From Candidatus Pacearchaeota archaeon (GTDB lineage: Archaea; Nanobdellota; Nanobdellia; Pacearchaeales; GW2011-AR1), in the NCBI GenBank assembly GCA_019659125.1, contig JAIFVX010000003.1:807-64806 (forward strand): 64,000 nucleotides of DNA. Reading direction: 5' to 3'. Position numbers and translations under genes: made by a program. The first letter of the stretch is position 1; every line of letters begins with the position of its first letter. This document shows, in pieces, positions 20,467 through 61,318 of this stretch. The notes under the pieces were generated by a model. That model was not told the DNA's origin. It ran no database searches and worked only from the letters and a program-made list of their open reading frames with translations.

Positions 20467-21375
20467 ATGAGGTTTAGATTTCTAATAGTAATAATAATAC
20501 TAGTATTATTATTTCAACTCTCTTCCGTTGCCAGCAATGAGAATAATCTCCTCGAGCCACAATATCGCAACTACCATGAATTATTTAATAAAAATGGAAT
20601 TAAAAATACTCTTACTATTGTTGGAAGTCTTTACGAACAGGGCAATCTAACTAGTGATGAATGTCATTTTATCCTCCATGAACTAGGAGATTATGCATCG
20701 AAAAAAATTGGGATAAAAAAATCCCTCCAAGAAGCAACAGAGACATGCAGAGCAGGATTCATCCATGGACTTTTCTTGAATTCCAACTTGACCGAGGTGC
20801 ATGATACGTCCCTATGCACTGGGTTTTTTACTAAGAAGTTGCGTTTACAATGTTTACATGGGCTTGGACATGGGCTAACAGTCTTTTTTGATTACAATCT
20901 TTCAGAGGCACTAGGTGTATGCAAGAGTGGAAAGAACGATGGCTATCAGAGCGCATGTGCCTCCGGGGTCTTTATGGAAGAGTTTAGTCCTCGCGCCCAT
21001 CTGTCTAGAAATGCTACTAATGAAACTTTTGAAATATGCGAGAATAATGATTTCAAATCTGAATGCAATTGGTATATTGGAATACGCATAACTCAGTACA
21101 ATAAGTCATTAACTCAGGGGCTAAAAGAATGCAATAATGCTGGGCAAAATTATCACACAGATTGTGAAAGAGGTATTGGAGTGCTAGCAGCACGAAGGAC
21201 TAACTATGACAAAGAGAATGTATTTTCTATCTGTGGAATTTCTAAGGAATGCTTGTTTGGCGCTGCAAGCGAATTCAGTCTGTCTGAAGGAATTAAAAGG
21301 GGCTTGTTATTTTGCAGACAGTTTCCGATCGAGGACAAAAGAAGATGTTTATCGGAAGTGATGTTCTTATTCTGA
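20467..21375 (+). CDS. Secreted Cys-rich protein, unknown function
   Basis: Signal peptide MRFRFLIVIIILVLLFQLSSVASN. Recurring C...G..HG.. segments (CRAGFIHGLF, CLHGLGHGL, CASGVFME). TATA-like box at 20436-20445. Confidence 0.5.
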   Translation: MRFRFLIVIIILVLLFQLSSVASNENNLLEPQYRNYHELFNKNGIKNTLTIVGSLYEQGNLTSDECHFILHELGDYASKKIGIKKSLQEATETCRAGFIHGLFLNSNLTEVHDTSLCTGFFTKKLRLQCLHGLGHGLTVFFDYNLSEALGVCKSGKNDGYQSACASGVFMEEFSPRAHLSRNATNETFEICENNDFKSECNWYIGIRITQYNKSLTQGLKECNNAGQNYHTDCERGIGVLAARRTNYDKENVFSICGISKECLFGAASEFSLSEGIKRGLLFCRQFPIEDKRRCLSEVMFLF

Positions 21376-32755: not shown

Positions 32756-33409
32756 ATGGAAAACTTCATCAAAAAAGTATTAGAGGGCAAGGGAGATGAT
32801 GACAGTCATCGTTATTTCGTAAGGTTCGGTAAAGGAGATTATGCCCGAAGATTCCTCATAAGTATGACTAAAGGTTCAAAAATAAAAGTAAAAGCCAGCT
32901 TTGAGCTTGCTAATGATCTTGTCCGGTTTGTCCGAGATATTGGAAATGTAAAGTTTTCAGGAAAAGTTCTTTCCAAAGACAAGGTTGAGGGCATAGAGGG
33001 AAGGAAAAAGGCAGGTGTTTTTGTCTATGAAGTTTCTGACTCCTCACTTCATGAGTTTCATAGCGCTTATTATTACCTTGTTGATGCCAATAATGGCGAT
33101 ATAGTACTAAAGATTAAGAAGAGTCTTCCTAAACCTGGAAAGAATGAAGAGAAGATTGATGATAAATTCTGCTCTCTTGAGGTTCCAGAAAAGCATTGGC
33201 ATGATCTGAAGCAAGCGTTCTTCTGGGATGCTCCCGAAGGCAAAAAGATTTCCATTGCTCATGAATTAAAGATACGTGATATTGTCTTTCCACGAGACGA
33301 GAAGGATCCTGTCAAGATACGCGAGAAGGCAAAGAGGAAAGGAACACTCGTCAGGGCAATAACGGTCGACGGCAATGAAACCAAACGTGACTACCCTCTC
33401 GAAGGCTAG
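32756..33409 (+). CDS. Hypothetical protein
   Basis: ORF with TATA-like gtttataaag at 32727-32736. Soluble, Lys-rich. Confidence 0.4.
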   Translation: MENFIKKVLEGKGDDDSHRYFVRFGKGDYARRFLISMTKGSKIKVKASFELANDLVRFVRDIGNVKFSGKVLSKDKVEGIEGRKKAGVFVYEVSDSSLHEFHSAYYYLVDANNGDIVLKIKKSLPKPGKNEEKIDDKFCSLEVPEKHWHDLKQAFFWDAPEGKKISIAHELKIRDIVFPRDEKDPVKIREKAKRKGTLVRAITVDGNETKRDYPLEG

Positions 33410-33945
33410 TATTCAAGCCCCTTTCTCGCTAGAATTCCCTTATCATAGGGATGTTTTACTTTCTTTATCTCAGTAACGAGGTCAGCAAGCTCAAAGATGT
33501 TTGGAAAGGGCTTATGTGATCCTGTCAGAATGAGCTCTTTCCCTTTAGGCTTTTCCTTGATTAAGGTGAGAACATCTTCTTCCTGAAGGAGGCCAAGTTG
33601 TACCGCATAGAGAATTTCGTCAGCGATGATGATATCATTCTCCTTGTCAAAGCATGAACGAAGATAGTCATATGCCTCTTTTACCTTCTCTATATGCTCC
33701 TCACTTGGCTTGCCAATGATCCATGAGCCTGTTCCAAATCGCTTGAATGAGAAATTCGGGAATTTTTCCAATGCTCTCAGCTCTCCAGGGTAATCTATCT
33801 CGGGATCGCCGGTGCCGTTCTTCATGAACTGTACCATATGTACCGTATAACCATTACCACATGCTCGCACTGCAGTCCCTAAGGCTGAGGTTGTCTTGCC
33901 TTTCCCATTGCCCCAAAATACCTGCACCATACCTGGTTTGTCCAT
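33406..33945 (-). CDS. Cob(I)yrinic acid a,c-diamide adenosyltransferase (CobA/CobO/BtuR type)
   Basis: VFWGNGKGKTTSALG P-loop, ...IIADEILYAV..., ...VTEIKKVKHPYDKG. Confidence 0.75.
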   Translation of the reverse strand: MDKPGMVQVFWGNGKGKTTSALGTAVRACGNGYTVHMVQFMKNGTGDPEIDYPGELRALEKFPNFSFKRFGTGSWIIGKPSEEHIEKVKEAYDYLRSCFDKENDIIIADEILYAVQLGLLQEEDVLTLIKEKPKGKELILTGSHKPFPNIFELADLVTEIKKVKHPYDKGILARKGLEY

Positions 33946-34039
33946 GCTTTTCTAACGATTATAAGTTTAAAGTAATTTGGATAGTCCGAGATAAGCTTTA
34001 TATATAGTCATTTCTATGAACATCCGTTAGTATGTTGTT

Positions 34040-34225
34040 ATGAATATTCATAGTAAAAAGATAGTGCAATACATCTCCAAAGAAGAGGTAGTAACTAGTT
34101 CTGAAATAGCAAAACTTTTGAAGGTCTCATGGAATACTGCTGAGAAATATCTTCTTGAACTTCTTATCGAGGGAAAAGTCAGGCGTATAAAAAAAGAGGG
34201 GGTTAACATATGGCTCGGAAAATGA
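34040..34225 (+). CDS. Small winged-helix DNA-binding protein
   Basis: 61 aa. VTSSEIAKLLKVSWNTAEKYLLELLIEGKVRRI. Confidence 0.55.
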   Translation: MNIHSKKIVQYISKEEVVTSSEIAKLLKVSWNTAEKYLLELLIEGKVRRIKKEGVNIWLGK

Positions 34226-34971
34226 AACGGGGGCAGATGGCGATATGGATTATCCTCGCCATTGTGTTAGTGGGGACAATGATCTTGTTCTTCACCGTCG
34301 AAAGAAAGGTAAACACGACGCAACCAGAGATACTCAGCCCTGAACTTCAAGTCAGGCAATGCACCAAGGAGGCAGTGAATTCCGTTCTTGCACAAACGCT
34401 TCCGCATGGAGGATTTGTCGAGCCGAGAAATACAAAGCTCTACAAGGGAATCAATATATCTTACCTATGCGACAACATAGGATTCTACAAGCCTTGCATC
34501 AATCAGCATCCTCTTCTCATCAAGGAAATGAACGCTGAGATCAAGGAGAAGATCACCCCTGAACTTCAGACATGCTTCTCTATTATTGATGGAGATTATG
34601 CCTCTCGAAATGCGGAGTTGGAGACTGGTCCATTAAGCTTTGATGTGAGACTCGCTCCTGGAAGAGTGTATGTAGATATCAATAGAAGTATGACTATTAC
34701 ACAGAGAGGATCAAGCAGGACATTCTCATCATACCAGGTTGAAATCCCTAGCCCTGCATATGATCTTGGCTCTATCGCTTCAGAGATTGCAAGTCAGGAA
34801 GCAAAATACTGCTACTTTGAGTATGTTGGATACATGCTTCTTTACCCTTCATTCAGGATATCAAAGACAGCATTACCTGATTCCACTAAGATTTACACTA
34901 TCACTGACAAAAAATCAGGAGATGCTATGAATATCGCCATCAGGAGTTGTGCGATACCTCAAGGAATATGA
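34222..34971 (+). CDS. Type IV pilin-like protein (class III signal), paralog of 38780..39586
   Basis: ATG 34222 forms an ATGA overlap with the wHTH stop (alternative ATG 34210). MKRGQ|MAIWIILAIVLVGTMILFF. Conserved Cys pattern shared with its paralog. Confidence 0.6.
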   Translation: MKRGQMAIWIILAIVLVGTMILFFTVERKVNTTQPEILSPELQVRQCTKEAVNSVLAQTLPHGGFVEPRNTKLYKGINISYLCDNIGFYKPCINQHPLLIKEMNAEIKEKITPELQTCFSIIDGDYASRNAELETGPLSFDVRLAPGRVYVDINRSMTITQRGSSRTFSSYQVEIPSPAYDLGSIASEIASQEAKYCYFEYVGYMLLYPSFRISKTALPDSTKIYTITDKKSGDAMNIAIRSCAIPQGI

Positions 34972-37900
34972 GAACGAACATTATTGTAGGCATTGAAATC
35001 ATACTTCTTATCAGCATGAGCTTTGCAATCTCGTATACTCTTCATGCTGAAGATAGCGTTGCATATGATTACAACCAATCTCCTAAAGATTTAGCATTTA
35101 AGATTATAAATCACCTATTCGGAAAGGGGATAGTTTCGGCACTCGACTCCTCTGATTTGAAGAATGGAGTCTCAACCTGTCTGCTTTCAAAGAATAATAA
35201 GGTATGCCAAGAATATCCCTCCAGTGAATGCGGGGGCAAGTGTACAACTGCATGCATTCCTTCTTCAAAATCCCAAGTTTCTGCATGCAGTGTTGGAACG
35301 TGCGTCGATCCTGTTGAAGGTATATGTCAGCCTGGATCCCCTAAATCTGCATGTGAGAATGATGGGGGACAATGGTATAATGATCCCAACGGAAATATAG
35401 CCCAATGCAAGCTTGGATGTTGCCTCCTTGGAGACCAGGCAAGTTTCATCACTTCACAACAATGTTCGCGTAAATCTGTGCTTCTTGGTGTCACGAGCAA
35501 TTTCAAGCCCGAGATAGGAAGTGAGATCGAATGCCTTGCTCTTGCAAAGACGCAAGAAGAGGGGGCATGCGTCTATGAACAAGACTTTCAAAAAAGCTGC
35601 ACGTTTACTACAAAGGCTTCATGCCTGCAGAAGACAGGAAGAGCAGATTCATTTTATCCAGGATTGCTGTGCTCAAATCCAGCATTGAACACGACATGCA
35701 AGAAACAGGCACGGACTGCATGTGTCGAGGGCAAAGATGAGATCTATTGGTTTGACAGCTGTGGAAACAGGGAGAATATCTATGATGCTAATAAGGCTCA
35801 GAGCTGGAATGAAGGTAAAGTATTAGCAAAACAAGACAGCTGTACACTTGATGCTGGAAAAAATCTTCTTGCCCATCAAAGCAGTTGCGGAAACTGCAAT
35901 TATTTCCTCGGCAGTATATGTGGTCAAAAAGCAGGAAATCAGAAATTATCTGACTCTTCACAAAATGTTGTTTGCAAAGATCTATCCTGTACTGATGCCC
36001 AAGGGAAAAAGAGAAAAAATGGGGAGAGCTGGTGCGCCTATCAGGGTTCTATCGGCGTCGATGAGAAGAACAATCGGGCCACTGATACCCCTGGCAGCAG
36101 CCATTATAGGGAAGTATGTATCGATGGAGTAATACAAACAGAAGCCTGCGCTGATGCACGAAGAGAGGTATGCATCGAATCGCAGACGCAGACAAATTAT
36201 GGAAAAATATCTTCCGCTGCATGCAGGGCTAATCTCTGGACTCAATGCTCTGAGTACAACACCGAAGTCACGGGAGAAGGAAATGCACGAATAGCATCGG
36301 AAAAGCAGAGAGATAACAAATGCTCACAAAATCCTGATTGCTTTGTCAAAAAAGTAGATATTTCTGACAATTTCAAATTCAATCTCTGTGCTCCACGGTA
36401 TCCTCCCGGATTTGATCTTTCGGCCAACTCTGATAGTGCTGAAATGGTGTGCGGGCTTGCTAGCCAGACATGCACTGCCATCTATGTAAAGAAGCTCTTT
36501 TCCGGATGGAAGTGCGAAGCGAATTGTGAATGTGAAGATGCTATCTTCACGGAAAAGATGAATGATCTTTGTATTAGTTTAGGGGATTGTGGGGCAAAAG
36601 TCAATTATAACGGACAATACAGAAAAAATTACCAGGCCTATAACGCTGAAAAAGTTCCTGACTCTTATATTGAAGGATTGAAGAAATATTCTGCAACGGT
36701 AACTGGACAATTCGCGGATGCTGGTTCATATAAGCAATTTTACACAAGCCTAGGGATTCCAAGCGATCTAGGGGCTGCAGGAAAACTTAAGGATCAAAAC
36801 GAGGCTGCACTCAAGGCTGCACTCGTAACAAGTGGCTCGGCAGGCATCCTTGTGCTTGCAGCATATCATGCAGGAATCGCATCATCATTTGGTGCTGGAG
36901 GGGCTGCAATCATCTCAAAGATTCCTATCTTGTCAAGCCTTGTCGGAAAAAGCGCAGGAGTATCGTCTGCTGTAGCAGATCCTACAGGAGAATTTGGAGT
37001 AGCTGCCAATCCCTCTATCGCCGCCTATGGAGGTGCAGTTGCGGGAGCATCTCTAGGTCTTGCTGTCACTTCCCTTTTGATTAAGTTCACAGGCATAGGT
37101 CCAGGGCTTGACCCATACGTGACCAACTCCTTACTTGTTGCAGGGGCTTATTCAGGAGCAATCATTGGAGCAAATATTGGAAGTGGGGGTACAGGGATAT
37201 TCGGTGGACTAGGTGCAAGTGGATCTGCATCACTTGCTTTTGCATGGGTCATAGGAGTCGCAATTGTCCTAGCGATCGTCATATTCAAACTCTTGGGTAT
37301 CGGGAAGACAAAAGAGGTGAAGGTTGAATTCCAGTGCCAGCCCTGGCAGGCACCTACTGGAGGAAAAGCGTGCAAGCAATGTGGAAAAGATGGATTTCCA
37401 TGTACGCCGTATGCCTGCCATTCTCTTGGACAGACATGCGAGTTCGTGAATGAGGGATCGGGACAGGAAGCATGTATTGATAATAATCCTAATGATGCTT
37501 CTCCTCCAGTCATCCATCCACTCAAGAAAGTATTAGCTGAGGGATACAGTTATCAGGACGAAAATGAGAATGGTGTGAAACTTGTGGGACCTGAAGAGTG
37601 TATCAAAGCATATACTCCTGTAACCTTTGGAGTTGGCCTTGACGAACCCGGACAGTGTAAGTATGATGTAGAACATACGCAGTCCTATGATGATATGGAA
37701 TTTTATGTAGGGGATAGAAATCTCTACATCAGGAACCACAGCATGGCATTCACACTTCCTTCGCTTGAAAGTTTGGGGCTTCCAGGGTATGAACCAAGCA
37801 GGAAAGCAAACTATAACATGTACATCAGATGCGAGGATACGAATGGAAATAAGAACGAGAAAGAATATGCGATAAACTTCTGCGTGAAGCCTGGAGAAGA

Positions 37901-38783
37901 CCTCACACCTCCATCCATTTCCCCTGGGGATTACAACGAGTATGTTGCATATAACGCCACGTCAGTTGTTGCAAGCATCTACACAAGCGAGCCAGCTGAA
38001 TGCAAATGGGATACTAATGATAAGGAGTATGATGCTATGGCCTACTCATGGGTGTGCGATAGCGGGTTTGAAAACCAGACGTTTCTTGGATGGAAGTGCT
38101 CAGCAACACTTCCTATAAACAACGATTCTACCTTCTCTGTGCGATGTAGCGATCAGCCCTGGCTGAATGCAAGTACAAAGAGAAATGAAAATCATGAGAG
38201 CTATCCACTTACCTTCAAGAAATCGAAGATTCCTCTTACTATTACCTCCCTGACTCCTGACAACTCGACTATTATCGCCGGCACTGATGCTGTCTCAGTT
38301 GAGGTAGTTGCTAAAGTATCGGGAGGTGCTGATGGGACAGCGAAATGTAGTTACAAGATCGATAATTATTATGTTGATTTCCTGGACACCTTGAAGAGTG
38401 AGAGCAGGAATGTTTTCAACCAGTTCACTCCAGGAGCAAAAGTGCTTGCCGTAAAATGTGAGGATCGGGCAGGAAATAGAGCGGAAAGAACTGCAAGATT
38501 CAGCATTGAGCTTGACAGTGCAGCTCCTGAAGTCACGCGAGTCTACGAAAAGAGCGGTTCACTGGTTGTCATTACCAATGAGCCTGCACGTTGCTCATTT
38601 GTCCATTTCCTAAACAGAACTAGGGATACCTGCAGCTTCCAGTTCCCAGAAGGGGAAGTGTTGGAGGGGAGTGATTTGATCCATACGGCGCCTCTCGAGC
38701 AATTACCCTATTATATCAAGTGCAAGGATCGATTTGAGAATATAGCGGGAGCATGCAGCATGATCGTGCAGGCAAAGGTATGA
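34968..38783 (+). CDS. Giant (1271 aa) Cys-rich membrane/surface protein, fusion of 39583-type and 41836-type proteins
   Basis: ATGA overlap start. Layout: signal anchor IILLISMSFAISY, ~550-aa Cys-rich domain, ~170-aa Gly/Ala-rich hydrophobic region, then a ~480-aa C-terminal region with 4 repeats. Confidence 0.7.
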   Translation: MRTNIIVGIEIILLISMSFAISYTLHAEDSVAYDYNQSPKDLAFKIINHLFGKGIVSALDSSDLKNGVSTCLLSKNNKVCQEYPSSECGGKCTTACIPSSKSQVSACSVGTCVDPVEGICQPGSPKSACENDGGQWYNDPNGNIAQCKLGCCLLGDQASFITSQQCSRKSVLLGVTSNFKPEIGSEIECLALAKTQEEGACVYEQDFQKSCTFTTKASCLQKTGRADSFYPGLLCSNPALNTTCKKQARTACVEGKDEIYWFDSCGNRENIYDANKAQSWNEGKVLAKQDSCTLDAGKNLLAHQSSCGNCNYFLGSICGQKAGNQKLSDSSQNVVCKDLSCTDAQGKKRKNGESWCAYQGSIGVDEKNNRATDTPGSSHYREVCIDGVIQTEACADARREVCIESQTQTNYGKISSAACRANLWTQCSEYNTEVTGEGNARIASEKQRDNKCSQNPDCFVKKVDISDNFKFNLCAPRYPPGFDLSANSDSAEMVCGLASQTCTAIYVKKLFSGWKCEANCECEDAIFTEKMNDLCISLGDCGAKVNYNGQYRKNYQAYNAEKVPDSYIEGLKKYSATVTGQFADAGSYKQFYTSLGIPSDLGAAGKLKDQNEAALKAALVTSGSAGILVLAAYHAGIASSFGAGGAAIISKIPILSSLVGKSAGVSSAVADPTGEFGVAANPSIAAYGGAVAGASLGLAVTSLLIKFTGIGPGLDPYVTNSLLVAGAYSGAIIGANIGSGGTGIFGGLGASGSASLAFAWVIGVAIVLAIVIFKLLGIGKTKEVKVEFQCQPWQAPTGGKACKQCGKDGFPCTPYACHSLGQTCEFVNEGSGQEACIDNNPNDASPPVIHPLKKVLAEGYSYQDENENGVKLVGPEECIKAYTPVTFGVGLDEPGQCKYDVEHTQSYDDMEFYVGDRNLYIRNHSMAFTLPSLESLGLPGYEPSRKANYNMYIRCEDTNGNKNEKEYAINFCVKPGEDLTPPSISPGDYNEYVAYNATSVVASIYTSEPAECKWDTNDKEYDAMAYSWVCDSGFENQTFLGWKCSATLPINNDSTFSVRCSDQPWLNASTKRNENHESYPLTFKKSKIPLTITSLTPDNSTIIAGTDAVSVEVVAKVSGGADGTAKCSYKIDNYYVDFLDTLKSESRNVFNQFTPGAKVLAVKCEDRAGNRAERTARFSIELDSAAPEVTRVYEKSGSLVVITNEPARCSFVHFLNRTRDTCSFQFPEGEVLEGSDLIHTAPLEQLPYYIKCKDRFENIAGACSMIVQAKV

Positions 38784-39586
38784 GACGCAACAATTATAAA
38801 CAAAATTATTCTTTGACTGGCATGCAATTCGGCAAAAGAGGACAGCTTGCGATTATCATTATTATAGCCATTGTCATTATCGCTGCCGTTCTTATCTTTT
38901 TTTTCTATCCACGGATAGGGCCAAGCATATCAACTACCTTCTCTCCCACTAAATATCTGGAATCATGCATCGATCCAGTATTTTCCTCGACCTTGACAAC
39001 AGTAACGAAACAGGGAGGATATCGCGATCCTCAAGGGTTTGCATTATACCAGGGGGAGAAGATAAAATATCTCTGTTACACTTCTGAATATTATACAACC
39101 TGCTCTGTACAGCAACCTATGATCAAGAATCATGTTGAGGATGAACTTGCTCAAGCATTGCGGGAAAAGGCACAAGAGTGCATGCAGGGATTAAAGAGTG
39201 AATACCAATCACGAGGATACAGTGTCTCTTCAGGCCCTGTAAGTAGTGATGTCTCAATTATCCCTGGAAAAATACAGGTTCATTTTATAGCACCTCTAAC
39301 GGTAACAAAGAATGGCGCAACGCAAAGCTTCAAGGGGTTTGATGTCGAGAAAAGCAGCCAGTTATATGATCTCTTGTTCACTGCAAGCAGCATCATCGAT
39401 TACGAATCTTTCTATGGAGATTCTGAGACTACCTTATATCTCCAGTATTATCCTGACTTGAAGATTGAGAAAACAAAACTGAGCGATGGGACAAAGATTT
39501 ATACACTCTCAAATGTTGTGACTAAAGAAACATTTACCTTTGCCTCTAGGAGCCTTTCATGGCCCCCAGGGTATGGATTAGAATGA
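38780..39586 (+). CDS. Type IV pilin-like protein (class III signal), paralog of 34222..34971
   Basis: ATGA overlap start (alternative ATG 38822, MQFGKRGQ|LAIIIIIAIVIIAAVLIFFF). Aligns with its paralog, e.g. GGYRDPQGFALYQGEKIKYLC versus GGFVEPRNTKLYKGINISYLC. Confidence 0.6.
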   Translation: MRRNNYKQNYSLTGMQFGKRGQLAIIIIIAIVIIAAVLIFFFYPRIGPSISTTFSPTKYLESCIDPVFSSTLTTVTKQGGYRDPQGFALYQGEKIKYLCYTSEYYTTCSVQQPMIKNHVEDELAQALREKAQECMQGLKSEYQSRGYSVSSGPVSSDVSIIPGKIQVHFIAPLTVTKNGATQSFKGFDVEKSSQLYDLLFTASSIIDYESFYGDSETTLYLQYYPDLKIEKTKLSDGTKIYTLSNVVTKETFTFASRSLSWPPGYGLE

Positions 39587-41112
39587 TCACAAAAACTCAC
39601 ATGATTCGCCTCGGCATCTTTATTGCAGCATTTGCAGTACTACTCGCATCAGCGTCAGCCTTGAATGCCACTGTATGCTGTGAGAAGACTACCTCTGGAG
39701 AGTTTTGCCAAAACGTCCCTAGCAGCCAATGCGCTCCAGGTTCAAGACAGGTGCAAAGCTCATGTGATTCTGTTTCCTATTGCAAGCCAGGAGTATGCTA
39801 TGATTCTAAGGAAGGGACGTGCTCGAGCAAGACTTCGCAATTAGTATGCAACGCAAACAATGGGACATGGAGTGAGCAGTCGCCTCCTCAATGTGCCTTG
39901 GGATGTTGCACACTCGGGGACCAGGCAGCGTTTGTCTCTCTTGTTCGATGCAAGAAGCTCTCAGGATTTCTTGGTCTGCAAACAAATTATAACAGCGGTA
40001 TAAAAGATGAGACACAATGTATCCTCTCTGTACAAAACCAGGATAAGGGTGCATGTGTTTATACATTTGAATTCGAAAAAACATGTAAGTTCACGACGAG
40101 GGCTGAATGCTCTTCAGGCGTGAATGGAACTGGAAAAGGAGCATTCTTTAAAGGGAAACTATGCTCGGCTGAAGAGCTCGGCACTACGTGCGGACCGACA
40201 AAGCCAGCAAAGACGACATGTATTCCGGGAAAAGATGAGGTGTACTTTGTTGACACGTGTGGAAATGCGGCAAATATCTATGATGCCAGCAAAGTAAATG
40301 ATCCAGACTACTGGACCAATATAAAAGATAAGAGCGAATCCTGTAATCCGAGCGGTGCGAATGCAAACTCCGCCGGATGCGGGAATTGCAATTACTTGCA
40401 GGGAAGTGTATGTAGACCTTCCGAAACAGGAAAAAAAGCTACTTATGGAAGCACTATGTGCGCTAACTTGAACTGCGTGAACACGCAGAACGGTAAATCA
40501 TACAAACATGGAGAGAGCTGGTGCGTGTACAATGATGAGGGAACTACGGGAGAAGGAAAAGATGCTGTAGGAAGCAGATTCTATAAGCATATTTGCATCA
40601 ACGGCGAGGAAGTTCTTGAGCAATGTGCTGACTTCAGACAGGAGGAATGTATCGAAGACAAAATACAGGTACCGCAAGGAACGTTCTCACAGGCAGCATG
40701 CAGGGTCAACCGATGGCAGGATTGTGTTGCACAAACTGATCAGCTTGATTGCCAGAATAAGGACAAGCGTGACTGCTACTGGCAACCTGATGTGAAGCTT
40801 CCTCAATATGAGGCGAATGAGACTATCACGGGAACATGCCTTCCCATAAATCCTCCAGGGTTGAAATTCTGGGAGGGTGAAGAGGCAAAGACTATCTGTG
40901 CGCAGGGCAATGCAGCATGCGTCGTGACTTTTGAGAAAGGATTGTTTGGAGGAGAGAAATGCTCGAAGAATTGCGAGTGCCTTGATGGAACATGGCAGAA
41001 AGAGAGAAGCGATCTCTGCGTAAGCTTGGGAGACTGCGGACCAAATGTAAACTGGATCGGGCAACAAGGGTACAAGCCAGGGTATAATATCTCTATAACA
41101 AAAATAAAGTAG
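39583..41112 (+). CDS. Secreted Cys-rich protein (509 aa), homolog of the N-terminal half of 34968..38783
   Basis: ATGA overlap start. Signal peptide LGIFIAAFAVLLASASALNA. About 43 Cys by my count. Collinear conserved blocks (GCC.LGDQA.F, C.GKDE.Y..D.CGN..NIYDA, CGNCNY, GESWC, LC.SLGDCG). Confidence 0.7.
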   Translation: MITKTHMIRLGIFIAAFAVLLASASALNATVCCEKTTSGEFCQNVPSSQCAPGSRQVQSSCDSVSYCKPGVCYDSKEGTCSSKTSQLVCNANNGTWSEQSPPQCALGCCTLGDQAAFVSLVRCKKLSGFLGLQTNYNSGIKDETQCILSVQNQDKGACVYTFEFEKTCKFTTRAECSSGVNGTGKGAFFKGKLCSAEELGTTCGPTKPAKTTCIPGKDEVYFVDTCGNAANIYDASKVNDPDYWTNIKDKSESCNPSGANANSAGCGNCNYLQGSVCRPSETGKKATYGSTMCANLNCVNTQNGKSYKHGESWCVYNDEGTTGEGKDAVGSRFYKHICINGEEVLEQCADFRQEECIEDKIQVPQGTFSQAACRVNRWQDCVAQTDQLDCQNKDKRDCYWQPDVKLPQYEANETITGTCLPINPPGLKFWEGEEAKTICAQGNAACVVTFEKGLFGGEKCSKNCECLDGTWQKERSDLCVSLGDCGPNVNWIGQQGYKPGYNISITKIK

Positions 41113-41179
41113 ATTTTGTACTTTCTCAATAGTGATAACAAATAGTAAGATTTAAATATTCATCATTAGTATGATTTCT

Positions 41180-41794
41180 ATGAGAAATTCAATCAAAAAG
41201 AATCTTGCAATGATTGTCCTAGGTTCTACTATGGCTGCCGGACTATCAGGATGCGGTGCTGCAATGCAGATGGCTGCTCCTTTCTCTAAGACTGTAGAAG
41301 CTGGTATGGCTCTTAATGCGGCAGGTCAGGCAGTAACTGCCTATGAAGTTGCTGAAATGAATAAAACTGAGGTCAACGTTACGGTACAGCAGCCTCAACC
41401 TAATCATCCTGTATATCATAAATATCTTGGAGCACTCGAGATCTGCAACGACCCGGTAGGAGGGACCATTGTACTTACTACCTGCAAAGAATTCAAGGAT
41501 TATGATGGTGATGGGATTATAATGTTTCCCCATGAATATAGAGGGAAAAAAGAACGTTTTTCTAAAAACGAGAATATTTCTATCGCTGTTGGTGTAGAGA
41601 ATAAGGTAAGTGGCATTCATTATATTCTTAAGGATGGGGAAAATAAAACAATTAAGGACTTCTTGATAGAACAGGACTCGTATGGAACGCATGACGACTT
41701 TAAAGAGGGAGAGCTTGAAACAGGCACCTATACTGCTGAATTTTATCTCAAAAACAGGCCTCTTGGAAAGCTCAAATTTACTGTAGAGGACTAA
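41180..41794 (+). CDS. Putative lipoprotein (lipobox LSGC)
   Basis: MRNSIKKNLAMIVLGSTMAAGLSGC. ATG 41180 fits TATA-like tttaaata at 41151-41158 (track start is 41171). Confidence 0.5.
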   Translation: MRNSIKKNLAMIVLGSTMAAGLSGCGAAMQMAAPFSKTVEAGMALNAAGQAVTAYEVAEMNKTEVNVTVQQPQPNHPVYHKYLGALEICNDPVGGTIVLTTCKEFKDYDGDGIIMFPHEYRGKKERFSKNENISIAVGVENKVSGIHYILKDGENKTIKDFLIEQDSYGTHDDFKEGELETGTYTAEFYLKNRPLGKLKFTVED

Positions 41795-41806
41795 CTCTCG
41801 AGAATA

Positions 41807-41814
41807 TTTATAAA
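41807..41814 (+). promoter_or_regulatory. TATA-like box for the 708-aa gene
   Basis: atatttataaag is centred ~25 nt upstream of ATG 41836. Confidence 0.45.
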
Positions 41815-41835
41815 GAACTCTTTTCTTCATAGGGA

Positions 41836-43962
41836 ATGCAAAAGGTGCGCAGAAAAATAGGTGTTTTTCCAGTAGTTTTCATCCAACTATTCCTTCTTGT
41901 CAGCATGAGTTTTGCTGTTGCGTTCATCATTTCAAGCGAGAGTGTCTCTGCTGTCGATCCTGGAATTACTAACGTTCCTACAAAGTCTGCCCCACTCCCT
42001 AATAGGCCGTCTATCGGAGATGATACACCTAATTTGGGACAAGCGGCGCCGGCCGCTGCAGGAACGGGTGGTGGTACCTTGACAAAGGCAACAGGAGGAA
42101 ATGCATTCAAGAATATCTATGGTGGACATCTGTTTGGCATTGGCCCTGAGAGTTCTCTTGTTGCAGGATTAGCATGGGCAGCGACTGCATATTTTGCAGT
42201 AAAACTAGTGGCAGGATTGTTTGGAGCAAGTCCAGGCCTTACCAATGCGCTTGCAACATCGGTTGGAGTTGCTGCAGGGGTTGGTGGATTCCTTCAGTCT
42301 GCATGGGCTGGACAGGCAACTACCTTAGCGAATAATCCTATTCTTAGTATTTTTGTTGAGCATCCGTGGATTACTAGCATTGGGATTGGAGTGGTTATTT
42401 TTGTATTAACGTATAGATCTGAGAAAAAACAACTTGTTAGCTTCCAATGCCTGCCTTACGAGCCCCCATTAGGAGGAAGCCAATGCGAGCAGTGCAATAA
42501 AGATCCTTTTAGACCCTGCTCTGAATATCGATGCCAATCCCTGGGGCAGGCATGCAAGCTCTTGAATCCTGGAACGACAAATGAGAAGTGCACGTGGGTA
42601 AGCAAGTTTGATGTCAACTCTCCGGTGATTGAAGTCTGGAACCTGGCACTTTCTCCTCAAGGATTAAAATTCACACCCGATGATGCAATACGTCCTCCAA
42701 ACCGTGGAGTAAAAATACAGGCATCAAACGGTGGATGCTTGCCTGCATATACTCCATTGAAGTTTGGACTGCAGACGAATGAACCTGCACAGTGCAAGAT
42801 CGATTACAACAATAACGCATCGTTCAAAGACATGCAATATTATTTTGGAGAAAGCAATTATTATGAATACAATCATACGCAGACATTACGTCTTCCAGGA
42901 CCAGATACTGGAGTGCAAGGAACGCTATCACCGATCTTACAGAATGATGGGACGTTCAACCTCTATGTTCGATGCCAGGATGCAAATGGAAATGCTAATG
43001 TTGATTTGTTTGCTATAAACTTCTGCGTTGATAAGGGTCCTGACACAACCCCTCCTTTGATTGAAGCAACTTCAATTATTTCAGGAAGTCCTGTCCGGTA
43101 CAACGCTGATAATGTGCCGATGCAAGTGTTCGTGAATGAACCTGCACAATGTAAATGGAGCAGATCGGATAAGGATTACAAGGATATGGAGAACTCAATG
43201 CAGTGCGGCACTGAAAGCTATCAGGTCAATGCAAACTTGCAATACACCTGCTCGGGAAACCTTACAGGAATCAAGAACAGAGAGAGCAATACATTCTACT
43301 TCAGATGTGAAGACCAGCCAAACAAAGCTGAGAGCCAAAGGAATCCTATGCGGCAGAGTACTGCTCTTGTACTACGAGGAAGCCAGCCATTGAACATTGT
43401 GAGCGCACAGCCTAACGGAACAATCTATGGAAGCACTGAGACAATTCCTATGACTCTTTCAGTTCAAACGGATGATGGAAGCGATGAAGGGAAAGCAACC
43501 TGCTACTTCTCATCAACAGGAGCACAAAACAGTTACACCTCAATGATTAATACCAATGACTTCAAGCATAGTCAGCCTCTTGACCTGCCTTCAGGAACAT
43601 ACACTTATTTCTTCAGATGTATTGATGCTGGAGGAAATGCTGCAGATGCTAAGATCTCATTTAGTGTTATCGCTGATAGAGAAGCACCTAGTGTAACACG
43701 AGTATATCGGGATAGCACCGATAGTATGAAAGTCATAACCAATGAAGATGCTGAATGTGCGTACTCATTAAATAGCTGCGACTTCACTCTTAAAGAAGGA
43801 ACTGCGTTGCTTTCAACGCCAAGCAATAAAGTTGCCCATTTCGGACCTTGGAAACCAGGAGTGACGTACTACATAAAATGTAAGGACTTGCTAGGAAATG
43901 AACCAAGTCCTAACGAGTGCAGTCTTATTGCGAGTGCAACGCAGATTGCGAAGCAGCTCTAG
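41836..43962 (+). CDS. Membrane/surface protein (708 aa), homolog of the C-terminal half of 34968..38783
   Basis: Signal anchor LFLLVSMSFAVAF (compare LLISMSFAISY), Gly/Ala-rich hydrophobic region, then FQCLPYEPPLGGSQCEQC... and 4 repeats collinear with the fused protein. Confidence 0.7.
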   Translation: MQKVRRKIGVFPVVFIQLFLLVSMSFAVAFIISSESVSAVDPGITNVPTKSAPLPNRPSIGDDTPNLGQAAPAAAGTGGGTLTKATGGNAFKNIYGGHLFGIGPESSLVAGLAWAATAYFAVKLVAGLFGASPGLTNALATSVGVAAGVGGFLQSAWAGQATTLANNPILSIFVEHPWITSIGIGVVIFVLTYRSEKKQLVSFQCLPYEPPLGGSQCEQCNKDPFRPCSEYRCQSLGQACKLLNPGTTNEKCTWVSKFDVNSPVIEVWNLALSPQGLKFTPDDAIRPPNRGVKIQASNGGCLPAYTPLKFGLQTNEPAQCKIDYNNNASFKDMQYYFGESNYYEYNHTQTLRLPGPDTGVQGTLSPILQNDGTFNLYVRCQDANGNANVDLFAINFCVDKGPDTTPPLIEATSIISGSPVRYNADNVPMQVFVNEPAQCKWSRSDKDYKDMENSMQCGTESYQVNANLQYTCSGNLTGIKNRESNTFYFRCEDQPNKAESQRNPMRQSTALVLRGSQPLNIVSAQPNGTIYGSTETIPMTLSVQTDDGSDEGKATCYFSSTGAQNSYTSMINTNDFKHSQPLDLPSGTYTYFFRCIDAGGNAADAKISFSVIADREAPSVTRVYRDSTDSMKVITNEDAECAYSLNSCDFTLKEGTALLSTPSNKVAHFGPWKPGVTYYIKCKDLLGNEPSPNECSLIASATQIAKQL

Positions 43963-48233: not shown

Positions 48234-48821
48234 ATGATGCTTATTGATAGCTTGGTGGATAATGTGCAGAGCCATTCCCACCTTGTCCTCCTTATTGCCT
48301 CTCTATTCATTGGGGAGGAAGCCATGGTGTTCTTCGCTTTCATCGCAGGTGAAGGATTCCTATCATTCTGGCAGGTCTTCATTTATAGCATCATCGGCAT
48401 CATCATTGCAGATAGCATCATATTCTGGCTTGGGAGCGCTCATGTCGTTGACTTTCTGAAGAAGAGAGTGAATGTGGGGAGATATAAGAAGGCCATCAAT
48501 TTCATCCATAGAACTGCCGGAAAAAGCCAGATCCTCTCCCTTACACTGAGCAAATTTGTGTATGGATCGAGGATAGTGACTATATTCTACTTCAGTTCCC
48601 GAACCACTTTTAAAAAATTCTTACTTTCAGATATCATTGCAATATTCATATGGTCTGCAATCATGCTCCCTCTTGCATGGCTCGCTGGAAAGGGCTTAAG
48701 CTTATCATTCCATGCGGTAAGGCATTTTGAAAAGGTGATGAGCGTCATATTGCTCTTCGTCGTCATCATGTATGTGATCAATAAATTCGTACGGCTCTGG
48801 CTTGTGAGGAAGTCCACGTAG
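48234..48821 (+). CDS. DedA-like membrane protein
   Basis: Polytopic. FIGEEAMVFFAFIAG... TATA-like box at 48203-48212. Confidence 0.5.
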   Translation: MMLIDSLVDNVQSHSHLVLLIASLFIGEEAMVFFAFIAGEGFLSFWQVFIYSIIGIIIADSIIFWLGSAHVVDFLKKRVNVGRYKKAINFIHRTAGKSQILSLTLSKFVYGSRIVTIFYFSSRTTFKKFLLSDIIAIFIWSAIMLPLAWLAGKGLSLSFHAVRHFEKVMSVILLFVVIMYVINKFVRLWLVRKST

Positions 48822-57332: not shown

Positions 57333-57707
57333 TTATTCTACAATAATTTTTCCTTTAGTCATCCCCATGCTGCAGGTAAAGACATATGTCCCTGCTTTTT
57401 CAGGGGTAAACGTTAGAGTGTCTTCAGGAGTAGGAAGGTCTTTTGTGATTCCGAAGTCATTGATGATTATACCTCTACGACATCCGTTCACGCTTGAATC
57501 CAACGAAATGCTGACAGGTTGACCTGCTTTTACATGTATCTCTTTAGGAGCATAATTGTAATTTTTCTGACTCAACACAATCTTTTGTACATCTGCCGTG
57601 TTGGTTTTTACATTTTCTATAGGAGCCTTAGCGTGGGAAAACATGAGGAACCCTATAACAACAACGACTGCGGTGATTATTCCCATGACGAAGAACTTGT
57701 TTTCCAT
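57333..57707 (-). CDS. Membrane-anchored cupredoxin-like protein (Cys/Met variant), copy A
   Basis: N-terminal TM. KEIHVKAGQPVSISLDSSVNGC ... TFTPEKAGTYVFTCSMGMTKGKIIVE. Confidence 0.6.
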   Translation of the reverse strand: MENKFFVMGIITAVVVVIGFLMFSHAKAPIENVKTNTADVQKIVLSQKNYNYAPKEIHVKAGQPVSISLDSSVNGCRRGIIINDFGITKDLPTPEDTLTFTPEKAGTYVFTCSMGMTKGKIIVE

Positions 57708-57776
57708 TATGCCAAGGCCCCCGTTCGAGGACCATCCGTCATACCCATAATAAGACGATAATAAATATAAATGTTA

Positions 57777-58226
57777 CTATCTTCGATTTAACATCCACAA
57801 ACTTATCACGAGGATAACAATTGAGCCTACCTGTACTTCTATTCCATGAAAAGGCAAACTTGCAAAAGAAAATGAAACTCCCAATAGACCTAAAATAAGA
57901 GGTAGGAGACCGGTAACACATAATGGGCAAACACCTGCTGCTAAACCACCCAGAGTTCCAATGGTTGCAACAGTTCCTGCTTCTTTGCATTGTCTTCTTT
58001 GCTTATACTTGATATAGAGTAGTACTGCATTAGAAGAAACGAGCAATCCTATGATCAGCGATAGAATAAGAGAGACTATTAACTTAGACCAGAAAACAGA
58101 TTGTGCATTTGCTATAATGAGGGGAATCGTATTATAAAATCCACTAAAGAGGACTACAAGAATAAGATAAGCAAAAAAGATTAGGATGGTACTGAAGAGA
58201 TAAGGCTTTCTGAATAGAATCTTCAT
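57777..58226 (-). CDS. Membrane protein with an intramembrane CPLC motif
   Basis: 4 TM. TLGGLAAGVCPLCVTGLLPLILG. Confidence 0.45.
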   Translation of the reverse strand: MKILFRKPYLFSTILIFFAYLILVVLFSGFYNTIPLIIANAQSVFWSKLIVSLILSLIIGLLVSSNAVLLYIKYKQRRQCKEAGTVATIGTLGGLAAGVCPLCVTGLLPLILGLLGVSFSFASLPFHGIEVQVGSIVILVISLWMLNRR

Positions 58227-58609
58227 TCTACTACTATCGTTCCGTAACCCATGCCCATGCTACAAGCAAAACTGAAAGTACCTGCCTTTGTTGGTGTGAA
58301 GGTGATCTTATCGCTTGCAGTTTTAGCAAACTTTGAGACGCCAAGATCTTTTATCACAAATGATCGTAAACAACCTTGAACACTGCTATCCAAGGTAATT
58401 TCCACAGGCTGATTTGCTTTAACGGTTATTCGAGAGGGATAGTAATTCAGATTACGCTCACTCAGCGTTACTTGTTGCTTTTGACCCTGTAAAGAATTTG
58501 CATTATCAGTGATCACGTTTCCCGTAGGCGATTCCCCATTGATAAAAAATAACGCCCCCAGTATAACAACTGCAATAACAACCAACGCTAAAATGGTAGT
58601 GTTTTTCAT
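58223..58609 (-). CDS. Membrane-anchored cupredoxin-like protein (Cys/Met variant), copy B
   Basis: Paralog of copy A: SRITVKANQPVEITLDSSVQGC ... TFTPTKAGTFSFACSMGMGYGTIVVE. Confidence 0.6.
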   Translation of the reverse strand: MKNTTILALVVIAVVILGALFFINGESPTGNVITDNANSLQGQKQQVTLSERNLNYYPSRITVKANQPVEITLDSSVQGCLRSFVIKDLGVSKFAKTASDKITFTPTKAGTFSFACSMGMGYGTIVVE

Positions 58610-58638
58610 ATTTTCTTAATGTGCATTTCCTATTTAAA

Positions 58639-59325
58639 TTAACCGAAGACTCCGCTTCGTGGTCCAAAGACCATAAGGCATGTGGTGATTATGATTAAGA
58701 TAAATGTTAGGATGATTGAAAATAGGTGATTTTCATGTCTCTTCCGTTCCTCTCGCTTCATCTCTCCATAGATCATGTAATTTAAGGCAAAAAGGATACT
58801 AGCAGAGATACAGAAAACTATGACTGTGGCAATCTTGAGATGATCATTTAATAACATAAACGCAGTCATTGCACCCATAAGCCCTCCCATAAATCCGGCC
58901 ATGATTCCTTCCATAACTCCCATGACTCCACAGCACTTTCCATTCCAGACTCCTAGAATAATTCCAACAGCCATACCAAAGACAGATCCTACAAACATTC
59001 CATTAGTTGAAGCAACAAAAAAGCCTGGTAAGAAGCCTGCCACCATTCCAGTTGTCATACCAACCATCATACCACTCATGCAGGGCATTTCCATATATGC
59101 TCTTACTTGTCTAATAGTAGGAGCGATCAATCCATAACTTAAAGCTGCGAAAAATAGAAAGAATCCTTGTTTAGACATGAATCCTTCAATATATCTAAAT
59201 CGTGCAAAATAAAGAATACCCAGGACAATGAATGAAGTAAGAACGGAATAGATAAGCGTCTTTATCAATTCTCCTTCAACTCGTTCTTTTCTATTCAATT
59301 CCTTAACAAACTCTTTAACAGCCAT
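58639..59325 (-). CDS. Met/Gly-rich polytopic membrane protein
   Basis: MEMPCMSGMMVGMTTGMVAG ... GKCCGVMGVMEGIMAGFMGGLMGAM. Confidence 0.45.
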   Translation of the reverse strand: MAVKEFVKELNRKERVEGELIKTLIYSVLTSFIVLGILYFARFRYIEGFMSKQGFFLFFAALSYGLIAPTIRQVRAYMEMPCMSGMMVGMTTGMVAGFLPGFFVASTNGMFVGSVFGMAVGIILGVWNGKCCGVMGVMEGIMAGFMGGLMGAMTAFMLLNDHLKIATVIVFCISASILFALNYMIYGEMKREERKRHENHLFSIILTFILIIITTCLMVFGPRSGVFG

Positions 59326-59349
59326 AGTATAACAATCTTAAAATACTTT

Positions 59350-61317: not shown

Positions 61318-61318
61318 A

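What the first reader, a model, noticed from the sequence alone, without database searches (positions are those of the whole stretch)
34040..43962. 10-kb one-direction locus: pilin-like proteins coupled to giant Cys-rich membrane/surface proteins with no recognisable family
There are seven same-strand genes. The first five are chained by ATGA start/stop overlaps at 34222, 34968, 38780 and 39583:
- a small wHTH protein;
- a class-III-signal protein (MKRGQ|MAIWIILAIVLVG);
- a 1271-aa protein;
- a second class-III-signal protein (..FGKRGQ|LAIIIIIAIVIIAAV);
- a 509-aa secreted protein with about 43 Cys by my count.

A lipobox protein and a 708-aa membrane protein follow, each behind its own TATA-like box.

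The large proteins combine a signal anchor, a disulfide-type Cys-rich ectodomain, a Gly/Ala-rich multi-helix membrane segment and four repeated C-terminal modules. I cannot assign them to any characterised family. No pilus ATPase, platform protein or prepilin peptidase is present in the window.

For a small-genome (possibly episymbiotic) archaeon, this fits a dedicated envelope, adhesion or cell-cell contact apparatus. That functional reading is inference.
Basis: partly seen in the sequence, partly recalled or inferred. Interest (0 to 1): 0.9.

Follow-up and report, generated by a model that had tools for sequence, protein, structure and literature searches.

The report
Conserved unknown surface-protein locus in Pacearchaeota
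This 10-kb stretch of a tiny-genome Pacearchaeota archaeon encodes a two-module set of disulfide-rich membrane and surface proteins that recurs in the same gene order in related genomes, matches no known protein family or solved fold, and is probably a cell-surface complex whose function is still unknown.

Summary
Seven same-strand genes lie at 34040-43962, and all four ATGA overlaps, the protein lengths and the 43 Cys of the 509-aa protein check out.

- Module 1 is G2 plus G3.
- Module 2 is G4, G5 and G7, with the lipoprotein G6 in between.
- G3 is a fusion of a G5-like head and a G7-like membrane/Ig part. In some relatives G5 and G7 are themselves fused.

The contig is from a Candidatus Pacearchaeota archaeon. 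G2-G3-G4-G5 are colinear, often behind a G1-like gene, in nearly every one of 84 related loci with enough flank. G7 usually lies 0.2-7 kb downstream.

The secreted head G5 is as conserved as lysyl-tRNA synthetase (about 60% vs 53% median identity).

No Pfam, NCBIfam, PHROGs, PADLOC or PDB sequence match explains the large proteins. Confident AlphaFold models of G5 and G2 (pLDDT 91) have no Foldseek neighbour, including class II fusogens and pilins. Only the C-terminal modules are recognisable, as Big_13-type Ig-like domains.

Pilin-likeness rests solely on a conserved [KR]G|Q class-III signal motif.

Best reading: a vertically inherited, Pacearchaeota-lineage surface complex of a new kind. Its function in contact or the envelope is inferred, not shown.

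The parts
33997..34004 (+). TATA-like box (TTTATATA) 36-43 nt upstream of G1; candidate promoter of the G1-G5 operon
   Evidence: Sequence reading. Archaeal promoter consensus is from general knowledge; not tested.
34040..34225 (+). G1: 61-aa winged helix-turn-helix protein, candidate local regulator
   Evidence: Pfam FaeA 3.3e-5 and HTH_24 1.9e-4. A G1-like gene lies directly upstream of G2 in 26 related loci, median 67% identity.
34222..34971 (+). G2: 249-aa class-III-signal protein of module 1 (MKRG|QMAIWIILAIVLVG...); alternative start 34210 as in GenBank
   Evidence: 33% identical to G4, E 2e-40. Motif conserved in 98/109 sequences of the G2-family alignment. AlphaFold pLDDT 91.4 shows a TM helix followed by three helix-plus-sheet units. 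No Foldseek PDB hit at E<=0.001. 337 homologues, all unannotated.
34968..38783 (+). G3: 1271-aa fused protein of module 1. Signal/anchor 34968-35048; disulfide-rich head 35145-36602; Gly-zipper hydrophobic region 36801-37301; Lys-rich patch plus 7-Cys knot 37302-37493; four Ig-like modules 37494-38780
   Evidence: N-half is 36% identical to G5 (E 1e-90). C-half is 33% identical to G7 (E 5e-85). 699 homologues of 1200-1400 aa. Hydrophobicity and charge profile over 115 homologues. Exactly 21 Cys in the C-half in 115/115 homologues.
38780..39586 (+). G4: 268-aa class-III-signal protein of module 2 (..FGKRG|QLAIIIIIAIVIIAAV); alternative start 38753
   Evidence: Paralogue of G2. Orthologues at median 48% identity sit immediately before G5 in related loci. 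Motif present in 64/79 orthologues.
39583..41112 (+). G5: 509-aa secreted disulfide-rich head of module 2 (Sec-type signal, 43 Cys, no membrane anchor)
   Evidence: All 43 Cys are invariant or conserved in at least 90% of 67 orthologues. AlphaFold pLDDT 91.0, pTM 0.75. No structural neighbour in PDB or BFVD. 1491 homologues. Median identity about 60% versus 53% for LysRS.
41151..41158 (+). TATA-like box (TTTAAATA) upstream of G6
   Evidence: Sequence reading.
41171..41794 (+). G6: 207-aa lipobox protein (..AAGLSG|C), a fast-evolving accessory component
   Evidence: Lipobox read. A homologous lipobox family lies between G5 and G7 in 23 of 47 loci. An Lgt homologue is in the window at 18375-19112.
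41807..41814 (+). TATA-like box (TTTATAAA) 22-29 nt upstream of G7
   Evidence: Sequence reading.
41836..43962 (+). G7: 708-aa membrane/Ig subunit of module 2. Signal 41836-41949; low-complexity linker 41950-42135; Gly-zipper hydrophobic region 42136-42414; Lys-rich patch plus 7-Cys knot 42415-42618; four Ig-like modules 42619-43959
   Evidence: Paralogue of the G3 C-half. Orthologues at 40-58% identity lie downstream of G5 in most loci. 21 invariant Cys. Pfam hits among 43 family members: Big_13 in 41 (best 1.9e-8), DUF4625 in 32, Y_Y_Y in 21. The two module motifs recur four times.

Best explanation
The locus encodes a vertically inherited, Pacearchaeota-lineage cell-surface complex built from two ancient paralogous modules.

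**Composition of each module**
1. A small protein with an archaeal class-III (prepilin-type) signal: G2 or G4.
2. A disulfide-knotted head of about 480 aa with a new fold: the G3 N-half or G5.
3. A membrane part with two glycine-zipper segments and one strongly hydrophobic helix, then a Lys-rich patch and a 7-Cys knot.
4. Four Ig-like modules: the G3 C-half or G7.

**Proposed assembly (inferred)**
- Heads and Ig arrays are exported by Sec and oxidised outside the cell.
- G5 docks on G7 to rebuild a G3-like unit. One inter-subunit disulfide probably joins the single unpaired Cys of the head to the single unpaired Cys of the C-half.
- G2 and G4, made in fixed ratio by translational coupling, are trimmed by a prepilin peptidase encoded elsewhere. 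They stay anchored by their hydrophobic N-terminal helix next to their partners.
- The glycine zippers pack the units into a hetero-oligomer in the membrane.
- G1 regulates the operon. G6 is a variable lipoprotein accessory.

**Proposed function (inferred, least certain)**
A constitutive surface spike used for contact with other cells or surfaces. The more variable Ig arrays would be the outward binding part, and the highly conserved, glycan-free head plus membrane bundle would be the mechanical core.
For: **Shown**
- Gene structure and coupling.
- Two-module paralogy.
- Module 2 is a single ORF in L076 and L078 and matches as one G3-like stretch in L076 and L080. This is a Rosetta-stone link between G5 and G7.
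- G2-G3-G4-G5 are colinear in essentially every related locus with enough flank, and G7 lies downstream in most.
- At least 562 matching stretches occur in species-representative genomes, and all 80 listed carry Pacearchaeota, Woesearchaeota, Nanoarchaeota or other DPANN/archaeon labels.
- The locus keeps a stable chromosomal setting next to a CobO-like gene, Hjc and LysRS.
- It is absent from viral, phage and plasmid collections.
- G5 is conserved as well as LysRS.
- The class-III motif is conserved. It is of the +1 Gln type known from EppA substrates (PMC3875500).
- Head Cys are invariant.
- Head Cys counts change only in steps of two (43, 41, 39) and stay odd in 111/115 G3 and 114/119 G5 homologues. 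The C-half has exactly 21 Cys in 115/115 G3 and 42/43 G7 homologues.
- GxxxGxxxG segments are conserved.
- The C-terminal modules are Ig-like.
- The C-half composition groups with the extracellular proteins of the window.
- N-glycosylation sequons are depleted in the head, with observed/expected 0.22-0.52.

**Inferred**
All protein-protein contacts, the inter-subunit disulfide, prepilin-peptidase processing, oligomerisation and the contact function.
Against: - No experiment or expression data exist for any of these genes.
- The topology of the C-half is unresolved. The homologous hydrophobic segments number three, and the last is followed by a conserved Lys-rich patch (YKKEKKK). Plain positive-inside and parity reasoning therefore puts the Ig array in the cytoplasm. 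That conflicts with the Cys, Ig and composition evidence.
- G2 has no structural similarity to any solved pilin, and no pilus ATPase, platform protein or peptidase is nearby.
- Strong conservation of the head fits a housekeeping envelope role as well as a contact role.
- The window also encodes a separate S-layer-like protein and other Ig-like surface proteins. This locus is therefore not the only envelope candidate.
Confidence: 0.45

Rival explanations
1. Housekeeping envelope scaffold. The complex is a structural part of the cell envelope, such as an anchor or spacer for the S-layer or a membrane-stabilising lattice, with no role in contacting other cells.
For: - It appears widespread in the lineage, is vertically inherited and sits among housekeeping genes.
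- The head is as conserved as LysRS.
- Sequon depletion fits a tightly packed lattice.
- Ig-like arrays are common in archaeal envelope proteins (general knowledge).
Against: - No S-layer Pfam signal in any of the seven proteins.
- A separate S_layer_C protein is encoded at 7023-9641.
- A dedicated wHTH regulator and a variable lipoprotein partner are unusual for a bulk scaffold.
Confidence: 0.2
2. Membrane-bridging machine. The glycine-zipper bundle and head form a pore or fusion-type device that opens a conduit to a host cell for uptake of lipids, nucleotides or ATP. A head subunit disulfide-linked to a membrane subunit would then be loosely analogous to viral surface/transmembrane spike pairs.
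For: - Conserved GxxxGxxxG segments of moderate hydrophobicity lie next to one strong anchor.
- The locus has both split and fused head/membrane forms.
- Cys parity is odd in both halves.
- Pacearchaeales lack autonomous energy metabolism and have median 739-kb genomes (bioRxiv 10.64898/2026.05.13.725050).
Against: - The head model has no structural similarity to any solved fusogen, class II or otherwise, or to any viral protein model.
- No heptad-repeat ectodomain lies between the Gly-rich segments and the anchor.
- No channel family matches.
- The viral analogy is from memory, not a test.
Confidence: 0.15
3. Pilus-dependent adhesin set. G2 and G4 are minor pilins that prime a type IV pilus built by machinery encoded elsewhere, and they present G3, G5 and G7 as tip or base adhesins, as PilY1 is presented by bacterial minor pilins.
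For: - The class-III signal motif is conserved.
- A second cluster of four class-III-like genes lies at 3641-5985. It suggests the cell does run a type IV filament system.
Against: - G2 has no pilin-like fold neighbour. Its TM helix is separated from the globular part by a low-confidence linker (residues 29-33 below pLDDT 50) rather than continuing as one long helix.
- G3 and G7 carry their own membrane segments, so they cannot ride a filament tip.
- No ATPase, platform or peptidase gene lies within 10 kb in L001 or L003 or in the window.
Confidence: 0.1

Closest known systems
Archaeal class-III-signal (prepilin-type) proteins: EppA-processed pilins of Methanococcus maripaludis and the class-III-signal sugar-binding proteins of the Sulfolobus bindosome
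   Same: G2 and G4 share the short basic leader ending in Gly, Gln at +1 and about 22 uncharged residues after the cut. Gln at +1 is described for EppA substrates in PMC3875500.
   Different: - No Glu at +5.
- No Pfam class-III or DUF361 hit.
- The 220-aa globular part has a fold with no pilin neighbour.
- No assembly ATPase or platform gene nearby.
- Each is coupled to a giant Cys-rich partner, which is not described for those systems.
Bacterial Ig-like surface repeats (Pfam Big_13, DUF4625, Y_Y_Y)
   Same: The four C-terminal modules of G3 and G7 give recurrent weak-to-moderate matches. Big_13 hits 41/43 family members, best E 1.9e-8.
   Different: - The window's own G7 scores below the Pfam cut-off (21.3 vs 27 bits).
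- Each module carries family-specific invariant Cys and the motifs E-P-A-x-C and R-C-x-D-x-x-G-N.
- The context (Gly-zipper membrane domain, 7-Cys knot, head) is not that of known Big_13 adhesins.
Class II fusogens / archaeal fusexins (Fsx1, HAP2, EFF-1)
   Same: Only general traits are shared: a beta-rich, Cys-containing archaeal surface protein with a possible link to cell-cell contact.
   Different: A Foldseek search of the confident G5 model against the whole PDB found nothing at E<=0.001 (best E 0.4, TM-score at most 0.13). The locus is chromosomal and vertically inherited, not in the mobile-element setting that I recall for fusexins (from memory, not checked here).
Viral surface/transmembrane glycoprotein pairs (analogy from general knowledge only)
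   Same: - A Cys-rich head subunit plus a membrane-anchored subunit.
- Fused and split forms both occur.
- Gly/Ala-rich hydrophobic segments.
- A predicted single inter-subunit disulfide.
   Different: - No sequence or structural similarity.
- No coiled-coil ectodomain.
- A large Ig array follows the anchor.
- The weak Pfam CoV_NSP4_N signal is a 32-residue Cys motif below cut-off.
Pacearchaeota-specific protein-family modules without annotation (Castelle et al. 2021, PMC8204110)
   Same: That paper reports Pacearchaeota-specific family modules that wholly lack functional prediction, and notes that many DPANN lineage-specific families are predicted membrane-bound or extracellular. These families plausibly belong there.
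   Different: I could not check membership because the relevant supplementary table is not held. That paper, as read, does not describe this locus, its paralogy or its structure.

Membership tests
Archaeal type IV pilins / class-III-signal proteins (G2, G4) | N-terminal basic leader ending in Gly/Ala followed by about 20 hydrophobic residues (FlaFind-type pattern) | tested here: met
   Pattern present in 98/109 sequences of the G2-family alignment and 64/79 G4 orthologues; median uncharged run 22 residues.
Archaeal type IV pilins / class-III-signal proteins (G2, G4) | Pilin fold: a long N-terminal helix continuous with a beta-rich globular domain, similar to solved pilins or archaellins | tested here: not met
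   The G2 model (pLDDT 91.4) has TM helix 3-26, a low-confidence linker, then three helix-plus-sheet units. The best Foldseek PDB hit has E 0.0095 and TM-score 0.13, and no pilin appears among the 50 listed hits.
Archaeal type IV pilins / class-III-signal proteins (G2, G4) | Profile match to Pfam class-III signal or archaeal pilin families | tested here: not met
   No such family at E<=1 for G2 or G4. Nothing relevant in NCBIfam.
Archaeal type IV pilins / class-III-signal proteins (G2, G4) | Genomic association with a type IV filament ATPase, platform protein or prepilin peptidase | tested here: not met
   None among the window ORFs scanned, which include every ORF of 400 aa or more. None among the precomputed Pfam labels within 10 kb in L001 and L003. 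The rest of the genome could not be examined.
Archaeal type IV pilins / class-III-signal proteins (G2, G4) | Cleavage by a prepilin peptidase and incorporation into a filament | not testable with these tools
   Needs N-terminal proteomics or an in vitro peptidase assay.
Class II fusogens / fusexins | Three-domain beta-rich ectodomain structurally superposable on HAP2, EFF-1, Fsx1 or viral class II proteins | tested here: not met
   Foldseek of the G5 model against 350,542 PDB chains found 0 hits at E<=0.001. BFVD also gave 0 hits.
Bacterial Ig-like domain Big_13 (C-terminal modules of G3/G7) | Pfam PF19077 match at or above the gathering score | tested here: inconclusive
   Window G7 scores 21.3 bits against a cut-off of 27. 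41 of 43 family members match at E<=0.1, best 1.9e-8. An Ig-like fold is likely, but strict membership is not established.
Archaeal S-layer proteins | S-layer Pfam domains (S_layer_N / S_layer_C) or equivalent | tested here: not met
   No hit for G2-G7. A different window gene (7023-9641) does match S_layer_C, 35.1 bits against a cut-off of 23.9.
Bacterial-type lipoproteins (G6) | Lipobox [LVI][ASTVI][GAS]C at the end of a signal peptide, and Lgt in the genome | tested here: met
   G6 has ..AAGLSGC. Lipobox relatives occur in other loci. Lgt (PF01790, E 9.3e-26) lies at 18375-19112. Actual lipidation was not tested.
Phage / mobile-element / defence cargo | Matches to PHROGs or PADLOC families, or presence on viral, phage or plasmid records | tested here: not met
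   No hits for G2-G7. None in IMG/VR, INPHARED or PLSDB.

The most novel reading that the evidence does not exclude
The locus encodes a new class of prokaryotic cell-cell interaction machine. It would be a disulfide-linked head/anchor spike whose glycine-zipper membrane bundle bridges or opens the membrane of a partner cell. That would make it the conserved device by which Pacearchaeota obtain lipids, nucleotides and energy from hosts.
Probability: 0.15. Interest if true: 0.92.

Novelty: categorically new. Interest (0 to 1): 0.72.

Why it matters
Pacearchaeales have median genomes of about 740 kb and no autonomous energy metabolism, and how they attach to or feed on partners is unknown. I know of no cultured member, though I did not check this.

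This locus takes up about 1.3% of such a genome. It recurs in the same order across the related genomes sampled and is under selection as strong as on a tRNA synthetase, so it is likely central to their cell biology.

It also supplies a confident model of a roughly 480-residue disulfide-rich fold with no known neighbour, from a family of more than 4,000 sequence clusters with no annotation.

It therefore gives a concrete, testable target for work on the DPANN envelope and on how these cells contact partners.

Tried and rejected
- **Class II fusogen / fusexin, adhesin and pilus-tip comparison.** Foldseek of G5 and G2 against the PDB found nothing significant.
- **Viral glycoprotein relation.** BFVD search found nothing.
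- **TNF-receptor-type Cys-rich domains.** These appear among the top G5 hits, but only at probability 0.07 or less. Rejected.
- **Pfam CoV_NSP4_N.** It hits 32/67 G5 orthologues. The match is one 32-residue Cys motif at 12-20 bits against a cut-off of 25, and the coronavirus polyprotein hits in BFVD have E 0.5-0.7. Rejected as a local motif resemblance.
- **S-layer identity.** Not supported.
- **Defence or phage cargo.** Not supported.
- **Extra domains in the longest family members (about 1500 aa).** None found.
- **Thiol-disulfide genes in the window.** The candidates turned out to be a cupredoxin / P-type ATPase / ArsR set.
- **Exact-sequence contig look-up of the window's G3.** Not on record.
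- **Castelle et al. family table.** Not held.
- **Makarova 2014 and 2016 papers.** They do not describe this locus.
- **Topology from hydrophobicity, charge, sequons and composition.** The signals conflict.


Full report
**1.

The + strand carries G1 (34040-34225, 61 aa), G2 (34222-34971, 249 aa), G3 (34968-38783, 1271 aa), G4 (38780-39586, 268 aa), G5 (39583-41112, 509 aa), G6 (41171-41794, 207 aa) and G7 (41836-43962, 708 aa).

- ATGA overlaps sit at 34222, 34968, 38780 and 39583.
- Cys counts are 64 (G3), 43 (G5) and 21 (G7).
- TATA-like octamers precede G1, G6 and G7.
- Minor corrections:
  - The class-III cut is G|Q.
  - GenBank starts G2 at 34210.
  - Only G3 combines all four features attributed to 'the large proteins'.

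**2. The locus is two paralogous modules**

- G2 and G4 are 33% identical (E 2e-40).
- G3 residues 49-555 match G5 at 36% (E 1e-90).
- G3 residues 676-1269 match G7 at 33% (E 5e-85).
- The G3 and G7 signal segments are also similar.

G3 is therefore a fusion of a G5-like head and a G7-like membrane/Ig part. In related genomes module 2 can also be fused. It is a single ORF of 1330 aa in L076 and 1382 aa in L078. It matches as one G3-like stretch in L076 and L080. This is a Rosetta-stone argument that G5 and G7 work together.

**3. Origin and conservation**

The window's proteins are identical to hypothetical proteins KW805_04815, KW805_04820 and KW805_04830 of a Candidatus Pacearchaeota archaeon on a 70,662-bp contig. 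NCBI places that clade under Archaea, Nanobdellati.

Homologue searches gave 699 (G3), 1491 (G5) and 337 (G2) proteins. All are unannotated and have no Pfam domains. A full HMMER scan with the G5/G3 family profile (alignment A1) found 4,252 clusters at 50% identity with E<=0.001, and 2,099 with E<=1e-30.

A scan of species-representative genomes found at least 562 encoding stretches. All 80 listed carry Pacearchaeota, Woesearchaeota, Nanoarchaeota or other DPANN/archaeon labels.

Synteny across 84 loci:
- G2-G3-G4-G5 are colinear wherever the flank allows, often behind a G1-like gene.
- A G7 orthologue (40-58% identity) lies 0.2-7 kb downstream in most loci.
- A fast-evolving lipobox family like G6 lies between G5 and G7 in 23 of 47 loci.

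The locus keeps a stable chromosomal setting:
- A CobO-like gene lies divergently upstream in 25 of 65 loci.
- Hjc and LysRS lie downstream in about 20 loci.

G5, the gene tested, has no relative in IMG/VR, phage or plasmid collections.

Median identities to the window are G5 about 60%, LysRS 53%, G4 48%, G7 45%, G3 40% and G2 40%. The secreted head is thus under purifying selection at least as strong as that on an aminoacyl-tRNA synthetase.

**4. What the parts are**

*G1* is a wHTH protein.

*G2 and G4*
- They carry a conserved [KR][KR]G|Q leader followed by about 22 uncharged residues.
- This is the +1 Gln type described for EppA-processed pilins (PMC3875500). They lack the +5 Glu.
- The G2 model is confident (pLDDT 91.4). 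It shows a TM helix, a low-confidence linker and three helix-plus-sheet units.
- It has no significant PDB neighbour and no pilin among its listed hits. 'Pilin-like' therefore applies only to the signal.

*G5*
- It has a Sec-type signal, and all 43 Cys are conserved.
- The model is confident (pLDDT 91.0, pTM 0.75).
- It has no neighbour in the PDB (best E 0.4, TM-score at most 0.13) or in BFVD. It is not a class II fusogen.

*C-halves of G3 and G7*
- Each has a 7-Cys knot with fixed spacing, 11-2-6-4-6-11 in 74 homologues.
- Four related modules follow. They match Ig-like families across the family: Big_13 in 41/43 members, best E 1.9e-8.

*Membrane region*
- Two conserved GxxxGxxxG segments, one very hydrophobic helix and a conserved Lys-rich patch.

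*What matches nothing*
- No Pfam, NCBIfam, PHROGs, PADLOC or PDB sequence hit explains G2-G7.

**5. Cysteine parity**

| Region | Cys count | How constant |
|---|---|---|
| Head | 43, 41 or 39 | odd in 111/115 G3 and 114/119 G5 homologues |
| C-half | exactly 21 | 115/115 G3 and 42/43 G7 homologues |
| G2 family | 6 | 107 of 109 sequences |

Head Cys are lost in pairs, which points to disulfides. One Cys is left over in each half. The simplest reading is a single head-to-C-half disulfide, which would be inter-subunit between G5 and G7. This is inference.

**6. Topology is unresolved**

Because G3 and G7 are homologous, the shared hydrophobic segments number three. The last is followed by YKKEKKK. 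Parity and positive-inside reasoning therefore put the Ig array inside the cell.

Four observations point the other way:
- the 21 invariant Cys;
- the Ig-like families matched, which are all extracytoplasmic;
- an amino-acid composition that groups with the window's extracellular proteins (K+R 8-9%, S+T+N 21-24%);
- the parity argument above.

I favour an outside location at about 70%. Sequons are strongly depleted in the head (observed/expected 0.22-0.52) but not in the C-half.

**7. Window context**

- There is no pilus ATPase, platform protein or prepilin peptidase among the window ORFs scanned, which include all of 400 aa or more.
- A second cluster of four class-III-like genes lies at 3641-5985.
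- An S-layer-like protein lies at 7023-9641.
- A bacterial-type Lgt lies at 18375-19112.

**8. Interpretation**

Best reading (0.45): a constitutive, vertically inherited hetero-oligomeric surface complex of a new kind. It would be assembled as described in the explanation section and most likely used for contact with other cells or surfaces.

Rivals:
- housekeeping envelope scaffold (0.2);
- membrane-bridging or conduit device (0.15);
- pilus-presented adhesin set (0.1).

None of these is tested by experiment.

**9. Literature**

Castelle et al. 2021 report Pacearchaeota-specific family modules lacking any functional prediction, and note that many DPANN lineage-specific families are predicted membrane-bound or extracellular (PMC8204110). 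I found no paper describing this locus.

Noticed in passing
window 3641-5985 (+): A second cluster of four small same-strand genes with class-III-signal-like N-termini (MKRGQIHLSFAMIF..., MRKKGFEFSFGWIF..., and two more). Each has 4-8 Cys and none has a Pfam hit. The cluster suggests the cell runs a type IV filament system whose machinery is encoded elsewhere.
   Followed up: partly
window 7023-9641 (+): An 872-aa protein with a signal peptide matches Pfam S_layer_C (E 1.3e-8, 35.1 bits, above the cut-off). It is a separate S-layer candidate.
   Followed up: partly
window 18375-19112 (-): A bacterial-type prolipoprotein diacylglyceryl transferase (Lgt, PF01790, E 9.3e-26) is encoded in this archaeon. 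It fits the lipobox of G6 and of its relatives in other loci.
   Followed up: partly
L076 9956-13948; L078 9908-14056; L080 237-3776: In these related genomes the module-2 head and membrane/Ig genes (G5 and G7) appear fused. L076 (1330 aa) and L078 (1382 aa) are single ORFs; L080 is one continuous G3-like match that runs to the contig end.
   Followed up: partly
L058 171-4293 and L082 403-4670: An extra tandem copy of the G2-G3 module lies upstream of the standard locus.
   Followed up: no
window 33406-33945 (-): A CobA/CobO/BtuR-type P-loop protein lies divergently upstream of G1. It is 74% identical (median) in 27 related loci and adjacent to the locus in 25 of 65. Whether it is functionally linked or merely syntenic is unknown.
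   Followed up: partly
window 35145-36602 and 39583-41112 (heads of G3 and G5): N-glycosylation sequons (N-x-S/T) are strongly depleted in the head across the family (observed/expected 0.22 and 0.52), but not in the C-terminal Ig region (0.9-1.3). This suggests selection to keep the head free of glycans.
   Followed up: partly
window 57333-61973 (-): A copper-handling-like set: two cupredoxin-domain membrane proteins, a P-type ATPase (655 aa) and an ArsR-type regulator.
   Followed up: no
window 20467-21375 (+): A 302-aa protein with a signal peptide and 14 Cys has no Pfam hit. It is another Cys-rich secreted protein of unknown family.
   Followed up: no
window 10901-11503 (-) and 48234-48821 (+): Two DedA/VTT-domain membrane proteins are encoded in one 64-kb window of a very small genome.
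   Followed up: no
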